From contig CAWVIV010000010.1 of assembly GCA_963929435.1 (NCBI GenBank), forward strand, positions 942 to 64,941: a DNA stretch of 64,000 bases, given 5' to 3'. Below, in pieces: positions 7,386 to 31,389 of the stretch. Made by a program: the position numbers and the translations under genes. The notes under the pieces are model-generated. The model did no database searches. It was not told the DNA's origin and saw only the letters and a program-made list of their open reading frames with translations. Each line of letters opens with the position of its first letter. Within the stretch, counting starts at the first letter, position 1. Source of the stretch: an uncultured Bacilli bacterium (GTDB lineage Bacteria > Bacillota_I > Bacilli_A > RF39 > UBA660).

Positions 7386-8381
7386 ATGTTAAAATGTAAA
7401 ACTTGGGATTTAGGTTATGCCGTTTATAAATGTCCTAATTGTGGTGAAGAAAAAATAGTTCCTCATACCTGTAAATCTCGTCTTTGTTCTTCTTGTGGAA
7501 ACAAATATAATAAACAAAGAGAATCTTCTATCTTTTCTAAACTATTTAGATGTAAACATCGCCATGTTGTTTTTACTATTCCAGATGAATTAAGAGTATA
7601 TTTTAGAGAAGATAGAAAAAGACTTAATTATCTTTTTAAAGCCGCTTCTATTACTGTTAATTCTTGGTTTGAAAACAAGTACAAAAAGAAAGAGCTTATT
7701 CCTGCTTATATTTCTATTCTTCATACTTTTGGCAGAAGTCTTATTTTTAATCCTCATATTCATATGATCTTAATGGATGGTGGTATATCTAATAAATGTA
7801 AAGAATTTGTTAAAGTTGATTACTTTGCTTATCCATCATTTCGTAAACGATTTATGAAAGTACTTTTGGATTTATTAGAAGAAGATATTGGTAAAGATGA
7901 ATTTAGAAAAATTAAAAATAAAATGTATTTTGAACACAAAGATGGTTTCTATGTTTATGCGCCTCCTTCTAAGTTTAAATCTTATATTGATTTAATTAAA
8001 TATGCTTGCAGATATGTCGCACGCCCTGTTATGGCTGAATCTAGAATTATTGATTATGATGGTACCTTTGTTATCTTTTGGTATCAAAGACATAATGATG
8101 ATTTAATCGTTATCGAAAAAGTACATGCTTATGAGTTTATTTCTAGAATCATTATCCATATTCCAGATTATAATTTTAAACAAATTAGATTTTATGGTGC
8201 TTATCATAATTCAACTAAAATAGATATTGAAGTTACAAAAATTATTTCTAAGGAAAAGAAAGAATTCTTTAGTAAACTTACTTCTTGGCGTACTCTTATT
8301 ATAACTAATTTTGAAATAGATCCACTTACTTGTCCTATTTGTAATAATATAATGTTATACTATAATAGTATCTATACTTAA
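7386..8381 (+). CDS. IS91-family transposase (zinc-binding N-domain plus Y2 transposase); true N-terminus 7213-7385 is broken by two frameshifts
   Basis: CPNCGEEKIVPHTCKSRLCSSCG zinc-finger region, HVVFTIPDELR, SILHTFGRSLIFNPHIHMIL, and YACRYVARPV..RIRFYGAYHN. The upstream text ..IFKDWWYKFLETYPK / LNIRDVVFSNVERMLKC lies in shifted frames. Confidence 0.75.
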   Translation: MLKCKTWDLGYAVYKCPNCGEEKIVPHTCKSRLCSSCGNKYNKQRESSIFSKLFRCKHRHVVFTIPDELRVYFREDRKRLNYLFKAASITVNSWFENKYKKKELIPAYISILHTFGRSLIFNPHIHMILMDGGISNKCKEFVKVDYFAYPSFRKRFMKVLLDLLEEDIGKDEFRKIKNKMYFEHKDGFYVYAPPSKFKSYIDLIKYACRYVARPVMAESRIIDYDGTFVIFWYQRHNDDLIVIEKVHAYEFISRIIIHIPDYNFKQIRFYGAYHNSTKIDIEVTKIISKEKKEFFSKLTSWRTLIITNFEIDPLTCPICNNIMLYYNSIYT

Positions 8382-9624: not shown

Positions 9625-10462
9625 CTTTTACTTCATAGGAGTCCATTGCAACAAAGAAAGCATCTTTATCAATATTATGAATTCCTTCCTTTAATTTATA
9701 ATACTCTCTTGTTGGTACAACACCCATTAGAACTGTTTGATTTTCACTATTATATCCGCCTCTCGCTTTAAACTCAGTAACACCATGTTTAAGTTCATTG
9801 ATAACAAAGTCTTTAACTTCTTTTTCTTTACTAGTAATAATATAGAAAGCTTTAGAATCAGATATACCTAAGACAACTTTATCTGTTATAGTAGAGATTA
9901 AATAAAGAATTATTAGGGAATACATTAGATGATTAAAGCCAAAGACAAAGGCTCCTATAACAATAATTGTTCCATCAGTAAAGAACATACTATTACCTAG
10001 GCTCATTTTAAATACTTTAGATATTATCATATTTAAAATATCTGTTCCCCCAGTTGAATATCCGGCTCTAAATATTAAACCTGCTCCTAGTCCTTGTAAG
10101 GCTCCACCAAAGACAGCGATTAGTATCATTTCACTTTCTTTAAAACTTATATAAGTAGATAAGTGTTCTGTTAAACTTACAAAAACGGGAAAAAGAATAG
10201 AGCCTAATATTGTCGCTTTAGTTTTTTCTTTTCCTAAGACTAGGAATGATAATATGATTAAGAAAACGTTAGCGATAGAGATAATTGTTGAAGGATTAAG
10301 TCCAAAGAAATGTTTTAATATTAAAGAAAAGCCACTTACTCCTCCTGCTACTAAGTTATTAGGAGACATGAAAAGATTAAAGGCTAATGCTACTAGGAAG
10401 CATCCTATAATGAATTCTATTAACTCTTTAATTTTAATCTTATGCTTTATCGCTTCTTTCAT
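9614..10462 (-). CDS. yitT: YitT-family membrane protein (DUF2179 C-terminal domain)
   Basis: 282-aa multi-TM ORF with a C-terminal soluble domain (..VTEFKARGGY..VLMGVVPTREYYKLKEGIHNIDKDAFF). Confidence 0.8.
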   Translation of the reverse strand: MKEAIKHKIKIKELIEFIIGCFLVALAFNLFMSPNNLVAGGVSGFSLILKHFFGLNPSTIISIANVFLIILSFLVLGKEKTKATILGSILFPVFVSLTEHLSTYISFKESEMILIAVFGGALQGLGAGLIFRAGYSTGGTDILNMIISKVFKMSLGNSMFFTDGTIIVIGAFVFGFNHLMYSLIILYLISTITDKVVLGISDSKAFYIITSKEKEVKDFVINELKHGVTEFKARGGYNSENQTVLMGVVPTREYYKLKEGIHNIDKDAFFVAMDSYEVKGGA

Positions 10463-11559
10463 TTAGTCCTCCTTTTAGACTACTTTCAATAAAATCATCT
10501 ATCTCTCCATCTAAGACTCCTTTGGTATCACTAGTTTCATAACCTGTACGATGGTCTTTAACTAGAGAATAGGGATGTAAAATGTAACTTCTTATTTGAC
10601 TGCCAAAGTCAATGTTTGATTGAATACCTTTTTCTTTAGCAAGTTCTTGTTCTTTTTTTTGTTCTTCTAATACATATAATTTACTTTTTAAGACTTGTAA
10701 AGCAGTCTCTTTATTTTGAATTTGACTTCTTTCATTTTGACAAGTTACAACTATTTTAGTAGGTAGATGGGTAATACGAACAGCACTATCGGTAGTGTTT
10801 ACTCCTTGACCTCCAGCTCCTGTTGAACGATAGACATCTATTTTTAAATCTTTTTCATTTATATCTATTTTAATATCTCTAGATATTTCTGGAGTTACAT
10901 CAATACTTGCAAAGGAAGTATGACGACGATTAGATGAATCAAATGGTGATAATCTAACTAGACGATGAACACCTTTTTCATTTTTTAAATAACCATAAGC
11001 ATATTCTCCTTTTACTTTAAAAGAAACACTCTTTATTCCTGCTTCTTCTCCAGGTTGATAGTCAAGTAATTCTATCTTAAAGTTCTTTTTCTCACAGTAC
11101 CTTGTATACATTCTATAAAGCATATTAGCCCAGTCACATGACTCAGTTCCTCCTGCTCCTGGATGTATTTCAACGATGCAGTTATTTTTATCATATGGTT
11201 TATTAAAGAGTAGATAGATGCTTAAACTCTTTAAATCTTCTTTGATATTTTTATTATCAGCTTCTAGAGTTTCTAATAAATCTTTATCACTTTCTTCATC
11301 TAACATTTCTAGTAATTCTATAGAGTCAAATATCTTTTTCTTTAAATCGATTAACTTAGATGTACTTTCTTTTAGACTCTTTAGTTCATTAATTACTGTT
11401 TCGGCTTTACTGGTATCATTCCAAAAACCTTCTTTAGTTGTCTCTTTTTCTAACTCCTCTTGTTTTTTTAGTTTATTATCGGTGTCAAAGTGACCTCCAT
11501 AAACTTAGTATTTCTTCTTTTTCATTTGTTAATTCTTTTAATAATTCATTCTTATTCAT
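10440..11559 (-). CDS. prfB: Peptide chain release factor 2, expressed through a programmed +1 frameshift
   Basis: Frame-0 ORF MNKNELLKELTNEKEEILSLWRSL stops at TGA (11485-11487). The +1 frame continues DTDNKLKKQ.. into ORF 10440-11306, which contains SPF and GGQ ([17 protein letters not shown]). Confidence 0.9.
11484..11498 (-). promoter_or_regulatory. prfB: RF2 autoregulatory +1 frameshift site (SD-like GGAGG, 3-nt spacer, CTT TGA C)
   Basis: The minus strand reads GGAGG TCA CTT TGA C, the canonical prfB recoding signal. Confidence 0.85.
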
Positions 11560-11721
11560 TCTTACCAACTCTCTTTATTAGTATTATACAAGATATTTAT
11601 TTTTATAACAAAATATTTTTTGTATATTTTTACTAAATTTACATATAGTATTAATGAGGAAGGTTCACTGATAAGTGTGAAGATCCTCATATATATAGAT
11701 TGAGGAGCCTAATTTGGCTCC

Positions 11722-12171
11722 TTATTTTTTTATTTTTTGTAATTTTTTATTATATAGGTATTCTTCTATATGAATTTGATGATAATTAGGGTCATATTCA
11801 CTTAAACCATTATACATATTCATAAAGGTAAAGTTATATGGATGATATCTACTCCCACTATTTCTAAAGCGAACACTATATGTAGGAAAATCATATTCTT
11901 CAGTGCCCCTAAAAAAAGTTATAGAATAAGTATCTTCTTGTTTTTTTATTTCTAAGCTACTAGCATTTTCTAACGGCATATCATCTGAGTACCATTTAAT
12001 AATGTCGTTTTGAAACAATTTTTCATAAGCATAATCTACCTTTTTAGACTCATTTGAATTTCTTGAGTTTAATTCTTCAAAAAGAAATGTATAATCATCT
12101 TTATCTGTTTTTGGATATGGACGATGTTCTTTAATATTTTTATAAAGTTCATCAATCTTTTGATATAAAAA
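11722..12171 (-). pseudogene. 3' portion of a disrupted ORF of about 210 aa (copy in direct repeat 1)
   Basis: ORF 11722-12018 extends upstream without stops (FLYQKIDELYKNIKEHRPYPK...) to the IS1595 end at 12172. Confidence 0.5.
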
Positions 12172-12232
12172 CGCTGTGTATTAGATTATAGGGGGTAAAG
12201 GTATTTTCAAATACAAGGTTATATAGTATAAT
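12172..12232 (+). mobile_element. 61-bp left-end fragment of the IS1595-like element (duplicated with the target)
   Basis: CGCTGTGTATTAGATTATAGGGGGTAAAGG...TATAAT is identical to 15044-15104. Confidence 0.8.
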
Positions 12233-14194
12233 CTGGTTTTAAACACTTTGAGCATATAAAAACTCTCTTATTTCTTTATATATCAAGGATTAAGAGAGCT
12301 TTCTATTGTCTTAAAAAACTGCGTACAATTTTTACTTTTTTATTTGAGTAAAAATTTTTTTGAATTTTTTTATATCAATGACTTCATAGTCAGTTCTAAA
12401 GTCAAATTTATCATGTAAATCATCCGTTAAGTCAGTTCTAGTATAATTTGGAATATATGAATCTTTATTTTCTAATTTCATATTCATTTCTTTTAATGTA
12501 TCTATTATTTCTGTAACAGTATATTTTTCATCTAATTCTTTTTCTAAATATCTATAAACAATTAAGGCTAAAAAACAAGTAGTAAAGTGAGCCTTAATCA
12601 TATCTTCTTTTCTATGAAATACTGGTCTAGATTTAAATTCACTTTTCATAATTCTAAATGACTCTTCAATTTCCCAACGACTATGATTTACTTTTACTAT
12701 TTCTTCAACTGGATCTTCTAAATTTGTACATACGGCATATAAACCATCATACATAGCCTCTTGGTTAATAATGTCTTGATTTATTTCAAAATGTTTTTCT
12801 TCTGCAACTTCACCATCTTTAGTAGTGTTAATAGTAGTAATAAATCTTTTAGAATCATTCTGTTTGGCTTTGCCTATTTTTTTAGGATTAGTTTCTATTA
12901 ATTTTAAGGCTCTTTGAATTTGCCCTTCTCTAATTTTTCTTTGATATTCTTGGTATTTTACTGAGTAGGTAACTATTAATCTTTGTTCTAGTCCATTTTC
13001 ATTAATCCATCTTTCTTTGTAGAAAGTATCATCATAAAAATTTTTCATTAATTCGTTGTCATCTCTTAATTTAGAAATATCATATACTTTATCACTACCT
13101 GGTAATTTCCAACCTTTAGTTAAATCCAATGACCACTCTTTTAAATGCTTTTTCATTTTTTTTAATGATTGAGTAGTTATAAAACATCTACCTTCTATGT
13201 TATTAAATTTTCTGTTTTCATTAGATGCAAGACCTGCATCTGTACAAACAACAAATTTTGCAAGATTAAAATCATCAAGAATTTTTTGTTCTAAAGGTTG
13301 TAGTGTTTCTTGTTCATTAGTATTTCCTGGAGTTATATTAAATGCTAGTGGAATTGCATCTCCATCCATAAATAGTCCCATTTGAACAAGTGGATTAGGT
13401 CTATTTTCTTTAGATTTACCATATTTTCTAAAGTCATCTTCTTCTTCAATTTCAAAGTAATAATTAGTACAGTCATAATATAAAATTTTGTTATTACGTT
13501 TACAATATTTTTGTGTATTTTTATAAAGTTCTGACTGTATAAAGCCCATTTCTTTACTAATGATAGGCAAGGCTCTTTCTATATGTTGATATTCAAAATT
13601 AGGCTGTTCAATAAAATTTTTAGATAATTCTAAAGTTTTAAGCTTAGAAGCAGGATAAATAATTCTAGAAAATATTAATTTAGACAAAATATCATTCAAA
13701 TCGAATTGGAATTTATATTTATCTTGAATTTTATTGGCGATTTTATTTAAACCTAATTTATAATAAATACATTCTAAAAAAAGATAACCAACATTAAATG
13801 AACAACGACAATTTTTATCAATTAAACGTGTTGGGTCTTTAGTAATAATAACTGGTAATTTTTCTTCTTTACTTTTCAAATTTAACTCTTTTACATAGTT
13901 ATCTAACCATTCTAAAGGGTCCATGTCACCGGCTCTTTGTTTAAGCTTGTCCATATTACCAATATTTTCATAAACGCAAGTTGTTCTTTTGCCATTGATG
14001 TTAGTAATATCTTTAATAATGGCATAATGGATTGAATTTTTAGATTTAATTTTTCTTACTCTCATATATCATCACAATGCAATTATATCATTGTACGTGT
14101 ATTGTACGCAAGATATAAATTAAAAATTTGACAAAAAAATAACCATTTTTCAATGGTTTCCGCAGTTTTTATATTTCGCAAGTGTTTAAAACCC
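12233..14194 (-). mobile_element. IS1634-family insertion sequence (element A)
   Basis: Imperfect terminal inverted repeats: GGTTTTAAACACTTTGAGCATATAAAAACT at 12235 onward and the reverse complement of the other end, GGTTTTAAACACTTGCGAAATATAAAAACT. It is flanked by the 910-bp direct repeat. Confidence 0.85.
12332..14065 (-). CDS. IS1634-family (IS4 superfamily) DDE transposase
   Basis: 577 aa with YYDCTNYYFE, VVCTDAGLAS and HSRWEIEESFRIMKSEF (YREK-type motif). It is clearly homologous, by eye, to the 575-aa transposase at 16714-18441. Confidence 0.9.
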   Translation of the reverse strand: MRVRKIKSKNSIHYAIIKDITNINGKRTTCVYENIGNMDKLKQRAGDMDPLEWLDNYVKELNLKSKEEKLPVIITKDPTRLIDKNCRCSFNVGYLFLECIYYKLGLNKIANKIQDKYKFQFDLNDILSKLIFSRIIYPASKLKTLELSKNFIEQPNFEYQHIERALPIISKEMGFIQSELYKNTQKYCKRNNKILYYDCTNYYFEIEEEDDFRKYGKSKENRPNPLVQMGLFMDGDAIPLAFNITPGNTNEQETLQPLEQKILDDFNLAKFVVCTDAGLASNENRKFNNIEGRCFITTQSLKKMKKHLKEWSLDLTKGWKLPGSDKVYDISKLRDDNELMKNFYDDTFYKERWINENGLEQRLIVTYSVKYQEYQRKIREGQIQRALKLIETNPKKIGKAKQNDSKRFITTINTTKDGEVAEEKHFEINQDIINQEAMYDGLYAVCTNLEDPVEEIVKVNHSRWEIEESFRIMKSEFKSRPVFHRKEDMIKAHFTTCFLALIVYRYLEKELDEKYTVTEIIDTLKEMNMKLENKDSYIPNYTRTDLTDDLHDKFDFRTDYEVIDIKKFKKIFTQIKK

Positions 14195-14431
14195 GAGTCA
14201 AATATCTTTTTCTTTAAATCGATTAACTTAGATGTACTTTCTTTTAGACTCTTTAGTTCATTAATTACTGTTTCGGCTTTACTGGTATCATTCCAAAAAC
14301 CTTCTTTAGTTGTCTCTTTTTCTAACTCCTCTTGTTTTTTTAGTTTATTATCGGTGTCAAAGTGACCTCCATAAACTTAGTATTTCTTCTTTTTCATTTG
14401 TTAATTCTTTTAATAATTCATTCTTATTCAT
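14195..14431 (-). pseudogene. prfB: Duplicated 5' fragment of prfB (promoter, start codon and frameshift site retained), fused to the IS1634 end
   Basis: Identical to 11323-11559. The recoding site is duplicated at 14356-14370, and the reading frame runs into the IS end (..IFDSGFKHLRNIKT..). Confidence 0.8.
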
Positions 14432-14593
14432 TCTTACCAACTCTCTTTATTAGTATTATACAAGATATTTATTTTTATAACAAAATATTTTTTGTATATT
14501 TTTACTAAATTTACATATAGTATTAATGAGGAAGGTTCACTGATAAGTGTGAAGATCCTCATATATATAGATTGAGGAGCCTAATTTGGCTCC

Positions 14594-15043
14594 TTATTTT
14601 TTTATTTTTTGTAATTTTTTATTATATAGGTATTCTTCTATATGAATTTGATGATAATTAGGGTCATATTCACTTAAACCATTATACATATTCATAAAGG
14701 TAAAGTTATATGGATGATATCTACTCCCACTATTTCTAAAGCGAACACTATATGTAGGAAAATCATATTCTTCAGTGCCCCTAAAAAAAGTTATAGAATA
14801 AGTATCTTCTTGTTTTTTTATTTCTAAGCTACTAGCATTTTCTAACGGCATATCATCTGAGTACCATTTAATAATGTCGTTTTGAAACAATTTTTCATAA
14901 GCATAATCTACCTTTTTAGACTCATTTGAATTTCTTGAGTTTAATTCTTCAAAAAGAAATGTATAATCATCTTTATCTGTTTTTGGATATGGACGATGTT
15001 CTTTAATATTTTTATAAAGTTCATCAATCTTTTGATATAAAAA
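14594..15043 (-). pseudogene. 3' portion of the disrupted ORF of about 210 aa (copy in direct repeat 2, abutting the IS1595 element)
   Basis: Same sequence as 11722-12171. It joins in frame to 16307-16497 when the IS1595 element and one TSD copy are removed. Confidence 0.55.
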
Positions 15044-15109
15044 CGCTGTGTATTAGATTATAGGGGGTAAAGGTATTTTCAAATACAAGGTTATATAGTA
15101 TAATGAATA

Positions 15110-15213
15110 TGTCGAAGATGAATATGGAAAGGAAATATCTCTAATTAGCCAGTCACTTCTGTATTCATCTTCGACAAATGAATATTTACTTGGCTGGCTA
15201 ATTAGAGATATTT
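15110..15213 (+). repeat. Two interleaved perfect inverted repeats (A-B-A'-B') in the IS1595 transposase leader
   Basis: A is TGTCGAAGATGAATA (15110-15124), pairing with 15162-15176. B is AAATATCTCTAATTAGCCAG (15133-15152), pairing with 15194-15213. B' ends 13 nt before the transposase ATG. Confidence 0.85.
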
Positions 15214-15226
15214 TTTTGGAAATGTT

Positions 15227-16297
15227 ATGGAACATATAGAAAATATTTATGATTTATTACCTGAAGAAATTGAAGAATTAATTAACAAAATAGTTGAAGC
15301 TTTAAATATTGTTAAAGATAGAAAGAACACAAATTCTAGATTTGTTGATAGTGAGAAAACTTTAATTTTATGTCCAAAATGTAATTCAGAACACGTAATT
15401 AAAAATGGGCATGATAAAAATAAAGTTCAATCTTATCAATGCAAAGATTGTAGTAAAAAATTTAATGCTTGTACTAATACTCTAGTATCACACCTAAAAT
15501 TAACATATGAACAATTATTGATTTTTTTCGAGTGTATGGATGATAAATTATCAATTAGAAAAACAGCAGCTAAAATGAATGTTAATAAGAATACAGTATT
15601 TTTGTTACGTCACAAAGTTTTAGATTGCATATCAATAATAAGAGAAAATATTAAATTAAGAGGTATTGCTGAAGGTGATGAAACATATGAATCTATAAAT
15701 TTAAAAGGTACAAAGAAAGAAAATATGCCACGTTTTTCTAAACCTCGTTCATCTAATAATGGAAATTCAAAAAGAGGTATAAATGACCATCAAGTATGTA
15801 TTGCTTCAGTTATTGACGAAGATGATAATTTCTTTTTAGAAATCGTTGGTACTGGTCCCATAACTTCATTAGAAGTAGAGAAAGCATTTTCTAATAGATT
15901 AAATGATGTAACTTGTTTAATTACAGATTGTAAGACTTCTTATGAAAAATTCGCTAAAGATAATTCTATAAGATTAGAACAAGTTAAATCAGGAACTTAC
16001 AAAAATATTAACGGATATAGTTTAGGAAATATTAATTCTTTACATTCAGAATGGGCTACGTTTATTTCTAGCTTTAGAGGTGTTTCAACAAAACATTTAC
16101 AACATTATTTAGATTGGTTTAGTTTTCAAAAAATTATTAGTTATACTACTGAAACATTAAAAAGGCCTTTAACTATGATGAAAAAGGCTACTATTAATAA
16201 ATGTAATATTAATTCAAATAATGTTTATGATAATTCTTCTGGTATTGACTTCAATGAAGTATATGCTGAGTATAACTATTCACCCCTTACAAACTAG
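15227..16297 (+). CDS. IS1595-family transposase (N-terminal zinc ribbon plus ISXO2-like DDE domain)
   Basis: 356 aa with CPKCNSEHVIKNGHDKNKVQSYQCKDCSKKF and GIAEGDETY...CIASVIDEDD...LITDCKTSY. Confidence 0.9.
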   Translation: MEHIENIYDLLPEEIEELINKIVEALNIVKDRKNTNSRFVDSEKTLILCPKCNSEHVIKNGHDKNKVQSYQCKDCSKKFNACTNTLVSHLKLTYEQLLIFFECMDDKLSIRKTAAKMNVNKNTVFLLRHKVLDCISIIRENIKLRGIAEGDETYESINLKGTKKENMPRFSKPRSSNNGNSKRGINDHQVCIASVIDEDDNFFLEIVGTGPITSLEVEKAFSNRLNDVTCLITDCKTSYEKFAKDNSIRLEQVKSGTYKNINGYSLGNINSLHSEWATFISSFRGVSTKHLQHYLDWFSFQKIISYTTETLKRPLTMMKKATINKCNINSNNVYDNSSGIDFNEVYAEYNYSPLTN

Positions 16298-16306
16298 TAC
16301 ACAGCG

Positions 16307-16497
16307 TATAAAAAATAATTTTCTTTGGTAATAGTAAAAGTTTTCGATAAAGGCCAATCTTCGAAGTCCTCTTCTGGCCAATAAGACCAATACAAATCTA
16401 GATTTCCTCCAAACATTATATCAAAACTTCCATTTTCAGTTGTTATCTTAAATCTATCATAACCATCTGCATCTTTTGTTTTATTTATTTCAACCAT
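16307..16497 (-). pseudogene. 5' portion of the disrupted ORF of about 210 aa
   Basis: ORF 16294-16497 (MVEINKTKDADGYDRFKITTENGS...TKENYFLY) runs into the IS1595 right end. AGGAGG RBS upstream of the ATG. Confidence 0.55.
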
Positions 16498-16520: not shown

Positions 16521-16588
16521 AGTATAACACACTTATTTGCTATTTGTAGTAGATTTAGGTGCTTCGTGTACAACTAGTGTATCTTCTC
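16521..16588. repeat. 68-bp direct repeat, copy 1 (target duplication of IS1634-family element B)
   Basis: AGTATAACACACTTATTTGCTATTTGTAGTAGATTTAGGTGCTTCGTGTACAACTAGTGTATCTTCTC is identical to 18545-18612. Confidence 0.9.
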
Positions 16589-18544
16589 CCTAGTTTGACA
16601 GTTTTGATATAAAAATCCTTGCAACCCTAGATAAAATCTAGTTTTTTTATATTTTAGTACTTGCGTATGTATTCGTATGTATGATAAAATAGTAATAGTA
16701 AGGTGGGATTTAGATGAGACTAAACATTAGAAAGATAAATAATTATTCCTATTATTCTATTATTCAAGACTATACAAATTTAAAAGGAAAACGAACTACT
16801 AGAATATTTGAAAAATTAGGAAATCAACAACAAGTTGAAGAAAGATTTGGTAAAACAGATACAATTAATGAAATAAAAAAATATATTTCTAAACTTAATA
16901 ATATTGATAAAGAAGAGATAATAAAAAAAGAGTTTAATCCTAATAAAAAAATATTACCTGGCATAAAAAGAGAATTTAATGTTGGATATCTATTTTTAGA
17001 AAAAATATATAATGAATTAAATATTAAAAATATATGTGAGAATATAAAAAGTAAATATCAATTTCATTTTGACTTAAACGAAATATTGTCTTATTTAGTC
17101 TATGCTAGAATTATTTATCCATCATCTAAATTGGAAACCTTTAAACAATGTCAAAACTTTATTGAACAGCCTAACTTTAAACTTCATGATGAATATAGAG
17201 CCTTAAGTTATATTGCCGATAACATGGACTATATCCAAGAGAATTTATTTAACAATAGTAAAAAAGTAATAGATCGAAATTCTAGAGTTATATATTATGA
17301 TTGTACTAATTATTTTTTTGAAATTGATGATGAAGATGACATTAGAAAATATGGTATTAACAAACAACATCAACCAAAACCTCAAGTTGGCATGGGATTA
17401 TTCATGGATGGTGATGGTCTACCTTTATCTTGTAATATATATCCTGGAAATATGAATGAACAAAAGACTTTAATTCCAGAAGAAAACAAAATTGTTAATA
17501 ACTTTAAGTTAGATAATACTAAAATTATTTTATGTACTGATGCAGGTCTTGCATCTGATGAAATAAAAAGTTTTAATATTAAGAATGGACGTGGTTTTGT
17601 TATTACCCAATCCTTAAAAAAACTAAAAGAAAGTTATAAAGAAAAAATATTTGATAAAAATGGATGGAGAATGCCAAATGATTTAAGAAATGTTTATAAC
17701 TTAGAAACTATAGAAAACGATGAAGTATTAAGAGAAAAATATTATGAAACTTTATTTTATAAAATTATAGAAACTGAAACTAAGTCTGTTAAACAAGATT
17801 TAATAGTTACTTTCTGTTTTAAATACTTTGACTATAACAGAAGTATTAGAAATAATCAAATAGAAAGAGCGAAAAAAAGTATTGAAACTAATCAAGTTAC
17901 TAGGAAAGGTAAAAATCAAAATGATTATAGAAGATTTATTAATTCTTTAAACTCTACTGATAATGGTGAAGTTGCAGAAAATATAACCTATTCTATTAAT
18001 CAAGATGTTATAGATGAAGAAGAAAAATATGATGGTTATTATGCACTTACAACAAACCTAATTGGTGATATTAATGAAATACTTAAAATAGTTAAAGGTA
18101 GATGGGAAATTGAAGAATCTTTTAGAATTATGAAAAGTGACTTTCTTGCAAGACCTGTTAATCTATCTAGAGAAGATCGAATAAAAGCACACTTTATGAC
18201 TTGCTTCATATCACTATTTATTTACAGACTATTAGAAAAGAAACTTAACTACAAATATACTACATCACAAATTTTAGAAACTTTAAGAAATATGAATATG
18301 GTTGAACATAAAGGCTGCGGCTATGAACCAGTTTATGAGAGAACTATAATAACTGATGATTTACACAACACATTTAAATTTAATACCGATTTTGAAATAT
18401 TAAGTTATAAAAAAATCAAAAAAATTTTAAATAACAAATAATAAGCATCAACGTACGCATTTTTTTGCAACAAAAAAATCTCTCTAAATCCTTATAAAAT
18501 AAGGGTTGGAGAGATTTTGACTTTATAAAACTGTCAAAGTCAGG
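16589..18544 (+). mobile_element. IS1634-family insertion sequence (element B, a different member from element A)
   Basis: Terminal repeats CCTAGTTTGACAGTTTTGATATAAA (left) and reverse-complement right CCTGACTTTGACAGTTTTATAAAG. It is flanked by the 68-bp direct repeat. Confidence 0.85.
16714..18441 (+). CDS. IS1634-family DDE transposase
   Basis: 575 aa with YYDCTNYFFE, ILCTDAGLAS and GRWEIEESFRIMKSDF. Confidence 0.9.
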   Translation: MRLNIRKINNYSYYSIIQDYTNLKGKRTTRIFEKLGNQQQVEERFGKTDTINEIKKYISKLNNIDKEEIIKKEFNPNKKILPGIKREFNVGYLFLEKIYNELNIKNICENIKSKYQFHFDLNEILSYLVYARIIYPSSKLETFKQCQNFIEQPNFKLHDEYRALSYIADNMDYIQENLFNNSKKVIDRNSRVIYYDCTNYFFEIDDEDDIRKYGINKQHQPKPQVGMGLFMDGDGLPLSCNIYPGNMNEQKTLIPEENKIVNNFKLDNTKIILCTDAGLASDEIKSFNIKNGRGFVITQSLKKLKESYKEKIFDKNGWRMPNDLRNVYNLETIENDEVLREKYYETLFYKIIETETKSVKQDLIVTFCFKYFDYNRSIRNNQIERAKKSIETNQVTRKGKNQNDYRRFINSLNSTDNGEVAENITYSINQDVIDEEEKYDGYYALTTNLIGDINEILKIVKGRWEIEESFRIMKSDFLARPVNLSREDRIKAHFMTCFISLFIYRLLEKKLNYKYTTSQILETLRNMNMVEHKGCGYEPVYERTIITDDLHNTFKFNTDFEILSYKKIKKILNNK

Positions 18545-18612
18545 AGTATAACACACTTATTTGCTATTTGTAGTAGATTTAGGTGCTTCGTGTACAACTA
18601 GTGTATCTTCTC
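18545..18612. repeat. 68-bp direct repeat, copy 2
   Basis: Covers the last 56 nt of the 575-aa ORF (track coordinates) plus 12 nt downstream. Confidence 0.9.
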
Positions 18613-20275
18613 TTTGTACAATATCTTCTGTATCTTCTTTCATAGACTTTTGTAACTCTTCTACTTTTTTACCGTCTTTTAATATGTTAGACTTCTCTAT
18701 TGCTTCTAAAGTTTTAGTTAATTTAGTCATATCTTCTTTTATCCAATTGATAAGATCTAATGTGTTTTTTTCATATTCAATTATATCCCTTTGATAGTAA
18801 TAATCCATTTCTCTTATATCATCAGGAACATAATCAAATTGAGTAATACTTTTAAATTCTGTTTCTATAGAATTAATTTCTTTAGTTAGGGTATCTATTT
18901 TATCTGGTATACTTTGATTATTTTTCTTTAACAACTGCATTTTATTTATTGATTCTTGTAAATCATGCTTATATTGTTTAATTCTTTTTCTAAATATTAT
19001 TCTTTTAATGAAATTGCTAGAGCTTTCTTTAATCAAGTTATTAATATTTTCTTGATATTTTACTTCCTTATCAATTTTATTATTGTTATTTATTAATTCA
19101 GAATTATATTCATTTTGTTTTCGATATTTTTCTTTTCTATCATTAATTAATTCGTTAAGTTGGCCTTTTGATGCAATTATATTTTTGGTTATTTCTATTT
19201 TTTCTAACCTTTTATTATAATTATTTAATTGTTTTTCCTTTTCTAGTAATTCTTTTTTATTTTTATAATAAGTAAAACTTGTAATTACTTTAAGAATATC
19301 ATCATAAGATGTACATTTTTCTAATTTTATATCAAGTTCATTTTTATCCATATACATAATATCTTTACAACAGTTTAATAATAAATCATGATTGGGAAAT
19401 AATTCATTTGTTAATGTTTTATCTAAATATCTAATTATATATAAATGGTTAAGTATATCATCAAATGTTTTCTTATTATTAAAACTATTTTTTAAAAGAT
19501 TATATAATTTTCCTTCTAAATTGTCTAAAGTTATATTTTCTAATTTCTCACTTTGCATATATAGTTTTACTAATATAGTATATAGTCTCTCTATATTCTT
19601 ATAATTTGGCATAAGTTCTTTAAATATATCTTTGTAATAATCATCATTTATATAAGATTTACATTTACCAAGAAATAATGATAACTCATCAACATTTCTA
19701 TAAGGGGCATTTAAGTTTGATATTATATTATTTATTACTTCTTCTTTAGGTAAAGTTGTACCTATAATTTTTTCTTCTTCAATGTCTATATTATGAGTAA
19801 TTTCTTTTTGTAGTTTATCTTTTAATAGTTTTATATCTTCTATAGCAGTTACGTCATATTTGCTTTCCTTACTAGGTGGCTCATATAGATTTATTTTTAT
19901 TTTTCTAGAGTTTTCCTCATTACTATTAAACTTTTCTACAATATTTAGAGCATCTGTTATAAACTTAGCTTGACTATAACTTAACTTTCCATTATCTGGC
20001 ATAAAGATATTTAATTCAGAAGCAGCCGAAGCGATATAAGCATGGGATGGTCTAATAGCACCCCAGCCCTCTATTTGGTTATTAGGGTGAATTTCATTTT
20101 CTATATCTATTTGTATATTATCATGTGTCCTAATATCATCTCTAAGTACTTGGCTATAAAAAATAGACTGTTTATCTGTTATTACCCATAAGCCTCTTAT
20201 GCTTCTATTATTTTCACAATAATCAAAATAATCCTCTGCTTTTAATTTTAAACTTCTTTCATCTATTTTTTGCAT
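18557..20275 (-). CDS. Large hypothetical protein: N-terminal globular region of about 130 aa plus a long K/E/N-rich coiled-coil region
   Basis: A 575-aa uninterrupted ORF. The likely start is the fourth codon (ATG 20275), preceded by AAGGATGA. No catalytic motif recognised. Confidence 0.6.
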   Translation of the reverse strand: MQKIDERSLKLKAEDYFDYCENNRSIRGLWVITDKQSIFYSQVLRDDIRTHDNIQIDIENEIHPNNQIEGWGAIRPSHAYIASAASELNIFMPDNGKLSYSQAKFITDALNIVEKFNSNEENSRKIKINLYEPPSKESKYDVTAIEDIKLLKDKLQKEITHNIDIEEEKIIGTTLPKEEVINNIISNLNAPYRNVDELSLFLGKCKSYINDDYYKDIFKELMPNYKNIERLYTILVKLYMQSEKLENITLDNLEGKLYNLLKNSFNNKKTFDDILNHLYIIRYLDKTLTNELFPNHDLLLNCCKDIMYMDKNELDIKLEKCTSYDDILKVITSFTYYKNKKELLEKEKQLNNYNKRLEKIEITKNIIASKGQLNELINDRKEKYRKQNEYNSELINNNNKIDKEVKYQENINNLIKESSSNFIKRIIFRKRIKQYKHDLQESINKMQLLKKNNQSIPDKIDTLTKEINSIETEFKSITQFDYVPDDIREMDYYYQRDIIEYEKNTLDLINWIKEDMTKLTKTLEAIEKSNILKDGKKVEELQKSMKEDTEDIVQREDTLVVHEAPKSTTNSK

Positions 20276-20346
20276 AACTTTCATCCTTTATTTTTCTTAT
20301 CTTTAAGATATCATAAATATATTGTTATTTCAATTGTAAAGATAAC

Positions 20347-30264: not shown

Positions 30265-31389
30265 CTATTTAGCCCTATTTTTATTTTTTTTAGATTTAGG
30301 TTCTTTTTTAATAACTTCGCCTACTTTTTCGATTATATTATCTGTTACTTCTTTGTTCTTTTTAGAGATAACTGTTGTTCTTAAAACGAACCATACAACG
30401 ATGATAAATATTATTATATATAATATTTTACCCATGAAAGGGTCTTTTAGGGAATAGAAAATTGAAGCAAAGGCGAATAAGATATTAAAACCATAGATAA
30501 TTAAGACTGTAGTTCTTTGTGAAAAGTTCATTCCCAATAATTGATGATGGATATGTTCTTTATCAGGAGAGAATGGTGCTTGATGTTTTAATAGTCTTCT
30601 AATGATGGCGAATAGTGTATCTAGTATAGGTATTCCTAAAATCATTAAGGGAACAAATAAACTAGTTAAAGCTGGTCCTTTAAACTCTAAAAGAGTAATT
30701 ACTGCTATCATAAAGCCTAAGTACATGGCACAGTCACCACAGAATATTTTAGCAGGATAGAAGTTATGAAGTAAAAATCCTAATGTTGCTCCTAACATTA
30801 TAAATGTTAATATCATAACTAAACTACCACTACGTCCTTGGAAAAATCCTATAATACCTATTGTTAAGAAGAAGATGCTACTAATTCCTCCACTTAAGCC
30901 ATCTAAGCCATCGATTAAGTTTATTATATTTACACATGCTACTACAAAGAGAATTGTTAAAGGATAGGAGAACCATCCAAAGTTAATAGTATAACCAAAG
31001 GCCGTTATGTTATTTAATAGGAATCCTCCATAAAATACTAGGATAGAGGCTGCTATTATTTGGCCAATTAATTTTGTCCTTGCACGAATAGATTTTATAT
31101 CATCGGCAATACCAGTTAATATTATGATAAAACTTCCTATTAAGATAGAATTCATCTGAACACTTTCTGTTCCAAATAACATATAACCTATTAGGAAAGC
31201 TAAAAATATGCCAACTCCTCCTAATTTAGGGGTAGCTTTAGTATGAATATGTCTATGTCCTTCATCACTTCTTGGTATATCCATTGCTCCTATATGTTTG
31301 GCTATTCTTTTCATAAAGGGCATTATTAAAGCAGAGCATAAAAACGTTGTTATAACTATTTTTAGAGTCTCTATTATTTGTTGATTCAT
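30265..31389 (-). CDS. tagO: Glycosyltransferase family 4 (MraY/WecA/TagO-like undecaprenyl-phosphate sugar-1-phosphate transferase)
   Basis: 374-aa polytopic protein with NLIDGLDGLSGG and DIPRSDEGHRHIHTKATPKLGG. Confidence 0.75.
   Translation of the reverse strand: MNQQIIETLKIVITTFLCSALIMPFMKRIAKHIGAMDIPRSDEGHRHIHTKATPKLGGVGIFLAFLIGYMLFGTESVQMNSILIGSFIIILTGIADDIKSIRARTKLIGQIIAASILVFYGGFLLNNITAFGYTINFGWFSYPLTILFVVACVNIINLIDGLDGLSGGISSIFFLTIGIIGFFQGRSGSLVMILTFIMLGATLGFLLHNFYPAKIFCGDCAMYLGFMIAVITLLEFKGPALTSLFVPLMILGIPILDTLFAIIRRLLKHQAPFSPDKEHIHHQLLGMNFSQRTTVLIIYGFNILFAFASIFYSLKDPFMGKILYIIIFIIVVWFVLRTTVISKKNKEVTDNIIEKVGEVIKKEPKSKKNKNRAK

What the first reader, a model, noticed from the sequence alone, without database searches (positions are those of the whole stretch)
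11323..15104. IS1634-family element flanked by a 910-bp direct repeat and nested inside an IS1595 element
Segments 11323-12232 and 14195-15104 look identical by eye at a constant offset of 2872 bp. They directly abut the two imperfect terminal inverted repeats (GGTTTTAAACACTT...) of a 1.96-kb element encoding a 577-aa IS1634-type transposase. The repeat runs from inside prfB (about codon 80, counting after the frameshift) through a hypothetical ORF and ends 61 bp into the left end of an IS1595-family element, exactly after that element's TATAAT box. The simplest history is that IS1595 inserted first (8-bp TSD TATAAAAA), and the IS1634-family element then inserted with a 910-bp target duplication. 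One copy keeps prfB intact and the other keeps the IS1595 intact. The founding IS1634 of Mycoplasma mycoides is known for unusually long, variable target duplications of tens to hundreds of bp. To my knowledge 910 bp would be at or beyond the upper end of that range.
Basis: partly seen in the sequence, partly recalled or inferred. Interest (0 to 1): 0.62.

Follow-up and report, generated by a model that had tools for sequence, protein, structure and literature searches.

The report
IS1634-type element with 910-bp target duplication
A 2-kb jumping gene of the IS1634 family copied 910 bp of its target when it inserted, so prfB survives intact on one side and a neighbouring IS1595 element on the other; all eleven copies of this element and its sister in the genome, and about two dozen relatives, place one end right after a promoter -10 box.

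Summary
Window 11323-12232 and 14195-15104 are identical (910 bp, 0 mismatches) and abut a 1,962-bp IS with imperfect terminal inverted repeats. Its 577-aa transposase scores 365 bits on the NCBIfam IS1634 model and folds like Tn5 transposase.

- All 11 copies of this IS and a 70%-identical sister IS in the genome carry flanking repeats of 68-910 bp.
- Three differently named long-read assemblies carry the same repeat-IS-repeat structure.
- IS-free strains (97-98% identical) hold one copy of the region and an empty IS1595 site.
- Sister copies with 742-bp and 126-bp repeats have true empty-site contigs.

The published range for this family is 8-514 bp, so 910 and 742 bp exceed it.

New here: target choice is asymmetric. 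In 29 of 34 insertions (11 here, 23 in other Bacillota genomes), the end next to the transposase stop codon joins immediately after a TAnnnT -10 hexamer, often TGnTATAAT, with better -35 boxes than chance. The other end joins 55-910 bp upstream. Here the -10 box is the IS1595 transposase promoter and the upstream cut is in prfB codon 79.

The element is a new member of a known family. The promoter rule gives a handle on an unexplained mechanism.

The parts
11323..12232 (.). Left copy of the 910-bp target duplication. Together with the left flank it keeps prfB and its promoter intact, and it ends with a 61-bp IS1595 left-end fragment.
   Evidence: Identical to 14195-15104 with 0 mismatches.
12233..14194 (-). 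IS1634-family insertion sequence 'ISa', 1,962 bp (1,963 if G14195 is its terminal base). The genome holds seven copies, five of them 100% identical.
   Evidence: The inverted repeats are CTGGTTTTAAACACTT / C?GGGTTTTAAACACTT.
12332..14065 (-). Transposase gene, 577 aa. Catalytic residues are D198, D276 and E467, with a motif N460-x2-R463-x3-E467-x6-K474.
   Evidence: NCBIfam NF033559 at 365 bits. Pfam DDE_Tnp_1. Invariant columns in a 24-sequence alignment. AlphaFold model with pLDDT 82.8, best fold match Tn5 transposase at E 5e-6.
12262..12303 (-). Hairpin followed by a U-run just after the transposase stop codon. It is a likely terminator of the transposase transcript. It also lies in the path of transcripts entering from the captured -10 box.
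   Evidence: Fold z-score about -2.9 on both strands. The function is inferred.
14195..15104 (.). Right copy of the 910-bp target duplication. It carries the prfB promoter plus codons 1-79, a copy of the hypothetical gene's 3' part, and the first 61 bp of the intact IS1595.
10440..11559 (-). prfB (release factor 2), intact, with a programmed +1 frameshift at CTT TGA C (11490). The upstream cut falls after the second base of codon 79.
   Evidence: TIGR00020 at 465 bits. Translation with the frameshift gives 373 aa.
14195..14431 (-). Truncated duplicate of prfB (promoter plus the first 79 codons). It reads into the IS end in the same direction as the transposase gene. The predicted product is a 115-aa fusion.
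15076..15104 (+). IS1595 transposase promoter, TTTTCA-17-TATAAT. The right-hand cut lies immediately after its -10 hexamer. A copy at 12204-12232 now points into ISa, antisense to the transposase.
   Evidence: The uninterrupted sequence in the second IS1595 copy on contig C14 is shown.
15044..16306 (+). Intact IS1595-family element with CGCTGTGT... inverted repeats. Its transposase is 15227-16297 (356 aa). The 8-bp target duplication TATAAAAA is at 15036-15043 and 16307-16314. It splits a 210-aa hypothetical gene.
   Evidence: NF033547 at 124 bits against a cutoff of 75.. The empty site in IS-free strains and in G017 is shown.
12172..12232 (+). 61-bp IS1595 left-end fragment carried in the left repeat copy, preceded by a copy of TATAAAAA at 12164-12171.
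16589..18544 (+). Second IS1634-family element 'ISb', 1,956 bp, about 70% nucleotide identity to ISa. Its transposase is 16714-18441 (575 aa).
16521..16588 (.). 68-bp target duplication of ISb, with the other copy at 18545-18612. Its boundary is TGTTATACT|, the -10 box of the hypothetical gene's promoter.

Best explanation
The 910-bp repeat is a genuine target-site duplication made in one transposition event by an IS1634-family element (ISa).

How the duplication arose:
- The IS end next to the transposase stop codon (window 12233) was joined to the template strand immediately after the -10 hexamer of the IS1595 transposase promoter (...TAGTATAAT|).
- The other IS end (14194) was joined to the opposite strand 910 bp upstream of that promoter, inside prfB codon 79 (...TATA|GAG...).
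- The two strands of the intervening 910 bp then each went with one flank.
- Repair synthesis filled both gaps, so the whole stretch is present on both sides.
- As a result nothing was broken: prfB stays intact on the left and IS1595 stays intact on the right.

What is shown: the duplication itself, its recurrence at every copy, the empty sites, the -10 rule, and the fixed orientation.

What is inferred: the chemistry. The transposase has a Tn5-like DDE fold, so 3'-OH strand transfer is expected. The two end-joinings must be uncoupled in space or time, because the distance between them varies from 55 to 910 bp.

My preferred, untested version is as follows. The first end joins at the -10 box. 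The 3'-OH left in the target primes strand-displacement synthesis upstream. The second end is captured at the moving branch point, which sets the repeat length.
For: - Exact 910-bp repeat abutting the inverted repeats.
- IS1634 family model hit and Tn5-like fold.
- 11 of 11 copies of ISa and ISb in this genome have adjacent direct repeats of 68-910 bp.
- 23 related elements in other Bacillota genomes have repeats of 55-831 bp, including isolates such as Lactimicrobium massiliense (831 bp) and Bacillus kwashiorkori (271 bp).
- The same repeat-IS-repeat structure is present in three separately named long-read assemblies.
- IS-free strains carry one copy.
- True empty-site contigs exist for the 742-bp copy (L105, which differs by 8 SNPs, so it is another strain) and the 126-bp copy (L109).
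- A 744-bp short-read contig equals exactly the 742-bp repeat node.
- Target rule: TAnnnT ends exactly at the cut in 27 of 32 events against a background of 2.6-4.4% (P about 4e-32). TGnTAnnnT ends there in 13 of 32 (P about 2e-25). With the two imperfect-repeat copies the count is 29 of 34.
- The -35 matches at 16-18 nt spacing are better than at random TAnnnT sites (Mann-Whitney P 5e-7).
- Most sites in this genome are non-coding, with an RBS and gene start or a tRNA-like sequence downstream. Only 9% of all TATAAT sites and 33% of TGnTATAAT sites have such a context.
- The window repeat obeys both boundary rules (a|GAG ... TAGTATAAT|), which an artefact would not.
Against: - The three concordant assemblies may share one read set.
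- No strain was found that has IS1595 at this site without ISa. The exact pre-insertion state of this copy is therefore reconstructed, not observed.
- The IS-free strains also differ by an 821-bp radical-SAM gene inside the region.
- About ten related loci with full flanks showed no adjacent long repeat.
- The survey could only detect repeats of roughly 50 bp or more, so the length distribution is cut off on the short side.
- Enrichment for real promoters could partly reflect which insertions survive.
- The strand-displacement step has no direct evidence.
Confidence: 0.9

Rival explanations
1. The duplication arose by homologous recombination. Two ISa copies would have inserted independently, one in prfB and one in IS1595, on sister chromosomes. 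Unequal crossing-over between them would leave repeat-IS-repeat.
For: ISa copies are 100% identical, so they are good recombination substrates. One short-read contig (L104) shows the order IS end, repeat, IS end, which recombination between repeats could produce.
Against: - It needs two insertions plus a crossover at each of 11 loci here and 23 elsewhere.
- It predicts short target duplications split between the outer junctions, and none are seen.
- It does not explain why one boundary is always a -10 box facing the same IS end.
- No flanking IS copies remain.
Confidence: 0.04
2. The repeat is an assembly artefact. A single 910-bp region would have been wrongly written on both sides of the IS by a metagenome assembler.
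For: The genome is a 23-contig MAG at 87.6% completeness. No reads could be inspected.
Against: - Contigs from three assemblies with different naming styles (contig_5396, s1385.ctg001655l, tig00004487) agree at 99.99-100% over 9.3 kb, including both repeat copies.
- Ten other copies show repeats of ten different lengths.
- Isolate genomes of relatives show the same structure.
- The repeat ends obey the family's sequence rule.
Confidence: 0.02
3. The tandem duplication of the 910 bp existed first, and the IS later inserted precisely at its junction.
For: None specific. It is formally compatible with the final sequence.
Against: - IS-free strains and three congeners have one copy.
- It would need the IS to hit the junction to the base with no target duplication of its own, at every copy.
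- Zero divergence between the repeat copies.
Confidence: 0.02
4. The -10 preference is plain sequence specificity of the transposase for T-A-n-n-n-T in easily melted AT-rich DNA. Promoter function or RNA polymerase would play no part.
For: - The hexamer itself is the strongest signal.
- A few sites lie next to rather than at the best promoter-like hexamer (L018, L042, ISa on C21).
- In an open complex the template strand at -7/-6 sits inside RNA polymerase, which argues against direct attack there. This is my own reasoning.
Against: Targeted sites also carry TGn and better -35 boxes than random TAnnnT sites. They sit upstream of genes far more often than random TATAAT sites. These extras could, however, arise from survivorship or from a wider recognition motif.
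Confidence: 0.45

Closest known systems
IS1634 of Mycoplasma mycoides subsp. mycoides SC (Vilei, Nicolet & Frey 1999) and IS1549 of Mycobacterium smegmatis (Plikaytis et al. 1998), as summarised in PMC2266710
   Same: Same transposase family (NCBIfam IS1634 model). Size about 1.9-2.0 kb, with imperfect terminal inverted repeats starting with C. Long, copy-specific direct repeats. [quoted passage not shown]
   Different: - Repeats here reach 742 and 910 bp, beyond the quoted 514 bp.
- The host is an uncultured low-G+C gut Bacilli bacterium that uses the standard code.
- A defined asymmetric target rule is shown: a -10 box at the end next to the transposase stop codon, always in one orientation.
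- I found no mention of such a rule in the papers I could search. The two founding papers are not held, so I cannot say whether they looked for it.
Typical IS1634-family members such as ISGka5 of Geobacillus kaustophilus
   Same: Same family assignment and a DDE transposase.
   Different: Those members make 5-6-bp AT-rich duplications (PMC2266710). ISGka5 made 6 bp in an observed transposition (PMC8024623). The clade studied here makes 55-910 bp.
Tn5 / IS50 transposase (PDB 1MUH, 3ECP)
   Same: Best structural match of the predicted transposase (Foldseek E 5e-6, probability 1.0, TM 0.35-0.42). It has a DDE triad and an R-x3-E-x6-K motif.
   Different: - No detectable sequence similarity to any PDB chain.
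- The D-to-E spacer is 191 residues.
- Tyrosine of the YREK motif is replaced by asparagine.
- Tn5 makes a fixed 9-bp duplication (my own knowledge) from a rigid two-site complex, whereas here the two joinings lie 55-910 bp apart.

Membership tests
IS1634 family (insertion sequences) | Transposase matches the family's curated model above its cutoff. | tested here: met
   NF033559 transpos_IS1634: E 7e-109, 365 bits against a cutoff of 100, covering residues 36-553. ISb scores 344 bits.
IS1634 family (insertion sequences) | DDE catalytic domain of the IS4 superfamily with a long spacer between the second D and the E, and an incomplete YREK motif (PMC2266710). | tested here: met
   Pfam DDE_Tnp_1. 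D198, D276 and E467 are invariant or nearly invariant, with a 191-residue spacer. The motif reads N460-x2-R463-x3-E467-x6-K474, with no Y. The fold matches Tn5 transposase.
IS1634 family (insertion sequences) | Length 1,500-2,000 bp with terminal inverted repeats of consensus C-----YT (PMC2266710, table quoted). | tested here: met
   1,962-1,963 bp. The ends are CTGGTTTT... and, if G14195 is included, CGGGTTTT....
IS1634 family (insertion sequences) | Target duplication: 5-6 bp AT-rich in most members, long and variable (8-514 bp) in IS1634 and IS1549. | tested here: met
   The long, variable type: 68-910 bp at 11 of 11 copies. The upper values exceed the published range.
IS1634 family (insertion sequences) | Mobility: the same element at several loci, with empty sites in other strains. 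| tested here: met
   Seven ISa copies. Empty-site contigs L105 and L109. IS-free strains at the window locus. Transposition itself was not observed.
IS1595 family (the neighbouring element 15044-16306) | Transposase matches the family model, has an N-terminal zinc-binding domain, and the element makes an 8-bp target duplication (8 bp as the family's typical length is from my own knowledge). | tested here: met
   NF033547 at 124 bits against a cutoff of 75. NF050000 zinc domain. TATAAAAA on both sides, and single in IS-free strains.

The most novel reading that the evidence does not exclude
This Bacillota clade of IS1634-family elements may be guided to working sigma-A promoters rather than to a bare hexamer.

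- One IS end would be joined at the -7/-6 step of the template strand of a promoter that RNA polymerase has melted or marked.
- The nick would then prime strand-displacement synthesis upstream.
- The second end would be captured at the moving branch, which would explain the variable 55-910-bp duplications that have had no model since 1998.

A consequence is that each insertion copies a promoter and sometimes whole genes. The 742-bp repeat on contig C21 duplicates an intact dihydrofolate reductase gene. Each insertion also places a host promoter antisense to the transposase.
Probability: 0.25. Interest if true: 0.8.

Novelty: new member of a known kind. Interest (0 to 1): 0.55.

Why it matters
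Long target duplications by IS1634-type elements have been known since 1998-1999 without any mechanism (PMC2266710).

This locus and its ten sister copies give clean, recent, error-free examples up to 910 bp, with empty sites in other strains. They also show a simple rule: one end lands just after a -10 box in a fixed orientation, and the other lands at a variable distance upstream. That turns an unexplained oddity into something testable with a marked mini-element in a laboratory strain.

It also matters for genome annotation. Such insertions disrupt nothing. They duplicate promoters, gene starts and sometimes whole genes, and they break short-read assemblies exactly at the repeat ends.

Tried and rejected
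- I first listed ORFs with code 4 on the assumption of a mycoplasma. I rejected this because the organism has prfB with a TGA frameshift site and open frames under code 11.
- The founding papers PMC93511 and PMC106989 are not held. Their content is known to me only through PMC2266710.
- My first exact-match test reported two copies 'without repeats'. A gapped alignment showed a 126/127-bp repeat with a 1-nt homopolymer difference and an 81-bp repeat offset by one C. The idea that these were deletion-type outcomes was dropped.
- I searched for a strain with IS1595 but no ISa at this locus and found none.
- The cut next to the transposase start looked like a |GAG motif in this genome. Across 32 events only the G holds (28 of 32), and it is confounded with the IS terminal base. 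I make no claim beyond a one-base preference or microhomology.
- The promoter-pattern scan of the window is not enriched over shuffles in this AT-rich DNA (45 found against 55.5 expected). Pattern hits alone are not used as evidence.
- A sequence search of the PDB found nothing. Only the fold search was informative.
- Loci from the genome search in other genomes were not readable in Python. Those comparisons were done with DNA alignment and the genome search instead.


Full report
**1. The observation**

Window 11323-12232 and 14195-15104 are identical over 910 bp with no mismatch, and the identity stops at both ends. Between them lies a 1,962-bp element (12233-14194). Its ends form imperfect inverted repeats (pair I7). 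It holds one ORF, 12332-14065 on the minus strand, of 577 aa.

If the G at 14195 is counted as part of the element, the repeats read CTGGTTTTAAACACTT and CGGGTTTTAAACACTT. The duplication is then 909 bp, so there is a one-base ambiguity.

**2. What the parts are**

- The ORF matches the NCBIfam IS1634 transposase model at 365 bits (cutoff 100) and Pfam DDE_Tnp_1.
- An AlphaFold model built on 24 homologues (pLDDT 82.8) has Tn5 transposase as its best structural match (E 5e-6). No PDB chain is similar by sequence.
- D198, D276 and E467 are conserved, 191 residues separate the last two, and the YREK motif lacks its tyrosine. This fits the description of the family in PMC2266710.
- Left of the repeat lies prfB (11559-10440, minus strand), with the classic CTT TGA C +1 frameshift site at 11490. 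The organism therefore reads TGA as stop. My first ORF list under code 4 was wrong and was replaced.
- The repeat begins after the second base of prfB codon 79.
- Right of the repeat is an IS1595-family element (15044-16306). It has CGCTGTGT inverted repeats, a 356-aa transposase and an 8-bp TATAAAAA duplication.
- The repeat ends 61 bp inside that element, directly after TATAAT. This hexamer, with TTTTCA 17 bp upstream, is the likely promoter of its transposase gene, whose start codon lies 123 bp downstream.
- A second IS1634-family element, ISb (16589-18544, about 70% identical to ISa), sits 280 bp further right and has its own 68-bp duplication.

**3. Is the repeat a target duplication?**

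- The genome holding the window has 1.5 Mb in 23 contigs. The closest named record is an uncultured Bacilli MAG.
- The genome has seven ISa copies, five of them identical. Their adjacent direct repeats are 742, 172, 910, 189, 330 and 194 bp and 126/127 bp with a 1-nt homopolymer difference.
- The four ISb copies have repeats of 68, 231, 86 and 81 bp. Every copy therefore has a long repeat, each of a different length.
- Contigs from three assemblies with different naming styles (ERZ21549404 contig_5396, ERZ21549424 s1385.ctg001655l, ERZ21549405 tig00004487) match the window at 99.99-100% over 9.3 kb. They include both 910-bp copies.
- Five other contigs encode an identical RF2 fragment and are 97-98% identical in DNA. 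They come from IS-free strains. They hold one copy of the region, an uninterrupted 210-aa hypothetical gene with a single TATAAAAA, and neither IS1595 nor ISa. They also carry an 821-bp radical-SAM gene that the window's strain lacks.
- Congeners G006, G017 and G030 likewise hold one copy, ending exactly at the IS1595 boundary.
- No strain with IS1595 but without ISa was found.
- For the 742-bp sister copy, a short-read contig (L105) from another strain, differing by 8 SNPs, runs left flank, one repeat copy, right flank. Another contig (L106, 744 bp) is exactly the repeat node.
- For the 126-bp copy, L109 is the empty site.
- Recombination, a pre-existing duplication and assembly error are each very unlikely explanations for this whole pattern.

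**4. Relatives**

- A scan of species-representative genomes found 79 loci encoding transposases 45-95% identical to ISa, nearly all in gut Bacillota.
- In 23 loci with clear IS ends and enough flank, exact or near-exact adjacent repeats of 55-831 bp are present. Examples are 831 bp in Lactimicrobium massiliense, 442 bp in a Lachnoanaerobaculum MAG and 271 bp in Bacillus kwashiorkori.
- Many short-read contigs start exactly at an IS end, as expected if the repeat breaks the assembly graph.
- About ten loci with full flanks showed no adjacent long repeat. Repeats shorter than about 50 bp were not searched systematically.

**5. The target rule**

When every event is oriented by the transposase gene, the repeat begins with ATTATA-like sequence next to the IS end that lies beyond the transposase stop codon. 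It ends with C next to the other IS end. Read on the other strand, the first boundary is TAnnnT| with consensus T-g-n-T-A-T-A-A-T.

- The hexamer ends exactly at the cut in 27 of 32 events, against 2.6-4.4% of background positions (P about 4e-32).
- The extended form TGnTAnnnT is there in 13 of 32 events (P about 2e-25).
- With the two imperfect-repeat copies the count is 29 of 34, and one more event has the hexamer ending 2 nt before the cut.
- The -10-like box always faces into the IS from the same end.
- Targeted hexamers have better -35 matches at 16-18 nt spacing than random TAnnnT sites (Mann-Whitney P 5e-7; 37% against 14% with at least 4 of 6 matches).
- In this genome most sites are non-coding, with a ribosome-binding site and start codon, or a tRNA-like sequence, shortly downstream. 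Only 9% of all TATAAT sites and 33% of TGnTATAAT sites have that context.
- The other boundary shows only a G (C on the transposase strand) in 28 of 32 events. This cannot be separated from the terminal base of the IS.
- The window's own repeat obeys both rules: TATA|GAG in prfB and TAGTATAAT| in IS1595.

**6. How it most likely works**

Shown: one insertion event duplicates everything between a -10 box and a point 55-910 bp upstream of it.

Inferred from the Tn5-like DDE fold: the 3'-OH of the end beyond the transposase stop codon is joined to the template strand at the -7/-6 step. The 3'-OH of the other end is joined to the non-template strand upstream. The strands between the two points separate, and repair synthesis completes both copies.

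Because the distance varies more than 15-fold, the two joinings cannot come from a rigid two-site complex like that of Tn5. I favour a sequential model:
- the first end joins at the -10 box;
- strand-displacement synthesis runs upstream from the nick;
- the second end is captured at the branch.

This model is untested. Whether the -10 box is read as bare sequence or through RNA polymerase is open; I put the bare-sequence reading at about 45%.

Consequences at this locus:
- prfB and IS1595 both stay intact.
- A copy of the IS1595 promoter now fires into ISa antisense to its transposase, toward a hairpin-plus-U-run just inside the IS end.
- A copy of the prfB promoter with 79 codons reads into the other end in the sense direction.

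**7. Comparison with what is known**

PMC2266710 states that IS1549 and IS1634 make long variable repeats of 8-514 bp, that the rest of the family makes 5-6 bp, and that no model exists. ISGka5 made 6 bp in an observed jump (PMC8024623). I found no paper describing promoter targeting in this family, but the two founding papers are not held.

Earlier notes of this scan, read after I had derived the rule, report the same -10 preference in other genomes and repeats up to 1,743 bp in planctomycete relatives. They are unchecked AI notes. My data agree with the first point and do not test the second.

**8. Verdict**

The element passes every membership test for the IS1634 family and is a new member of that family. 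Its 910-bp duplication is longer than any published value I could find, though not exceptional within the clade. The added value is the asymmetric promoter-box rule and the set of clean empty sites.

Noticed in passing
Own genome contig C21:27914-28655 and 30618-31359 (outside the window); loci L102, L103: The 742-bp duplication of a sister ISa copy contains a whole dihydrofolate reductase gene (161 aa as called, or 169 aa from an upstream GTG; Pfam DHFR_1). The insertion therefore left two intact copies of the gene. An IS-free strain (L105) has one.
   Followed up: partly
L104 (ERZ21563861 k87_2992426, 2,409 bp): This short-read contig has the order IS right part, 742-bp repeat, IS left end. 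It could be a circle or tandem amplification made by recombination between the two repeat copies, or a chimeric walk through the assembly graph. The IS part is only 98.2% identical.
   Followed up: no
window 16521-18612: The second IS1634-family element, ISb, has a 68-bp duplication bounded by the TGTTATACT -10 box of the hypothetical gene that IS1595 later or earlier split. Three IS insertions lie within 7 kb.
   Followed up: yes
window 11611-11615 and 16555 onward, compared with L094, L095, L097, L099 and L100: IS-free strains carry an 821-bp radical-SAM gene between prfB and the hypothetical gene, which is absent here. Beyond ISb, the DFP and LysR genes of those strains are replaced here by a hypothetical gene (572 aa as called in the matching contigs; 18557-20284, a 575-aa ORF in the window). 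This suggests an IS-associated rearrangement.
   Followed up: no
window 7386-8381: A 331-aa ORF with CxxC motifs; in near-identical contigs the neighbouring 205-aa gene call at about this position carries Pfam Y2_Tnp (IS91-type transposase). This is one more mobile element close to the locus.
   Followed up: no
window 11701-11724 and its copy at 14573-14596: A G+C-rich hairpin followed by a T-run lies between prfB's upstream region and the hypothetical gene. It is a likely terminator and is duplicated with the repeat.
   Followed up: no
L009:2906-5498 (OZ006970.1): In the closest complete genome, one ISa-like copy has a 169-bp repeat that abuts the end beyond the transposase stop codon. At the other end it is separated from the IS by about 290 bp of extra DNA. 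This is unexplained.
   Followed up: no
IS ends of relatives (L030, L033, L055, L073 and others) and ISb 16589-16605: The terminal inverted repeats of most relatives contain TTGACA, the -35 consensus, while the target is a -10 box. This may be coincidence. ISa itself has TTTAAACA instead.
   Followed up: no
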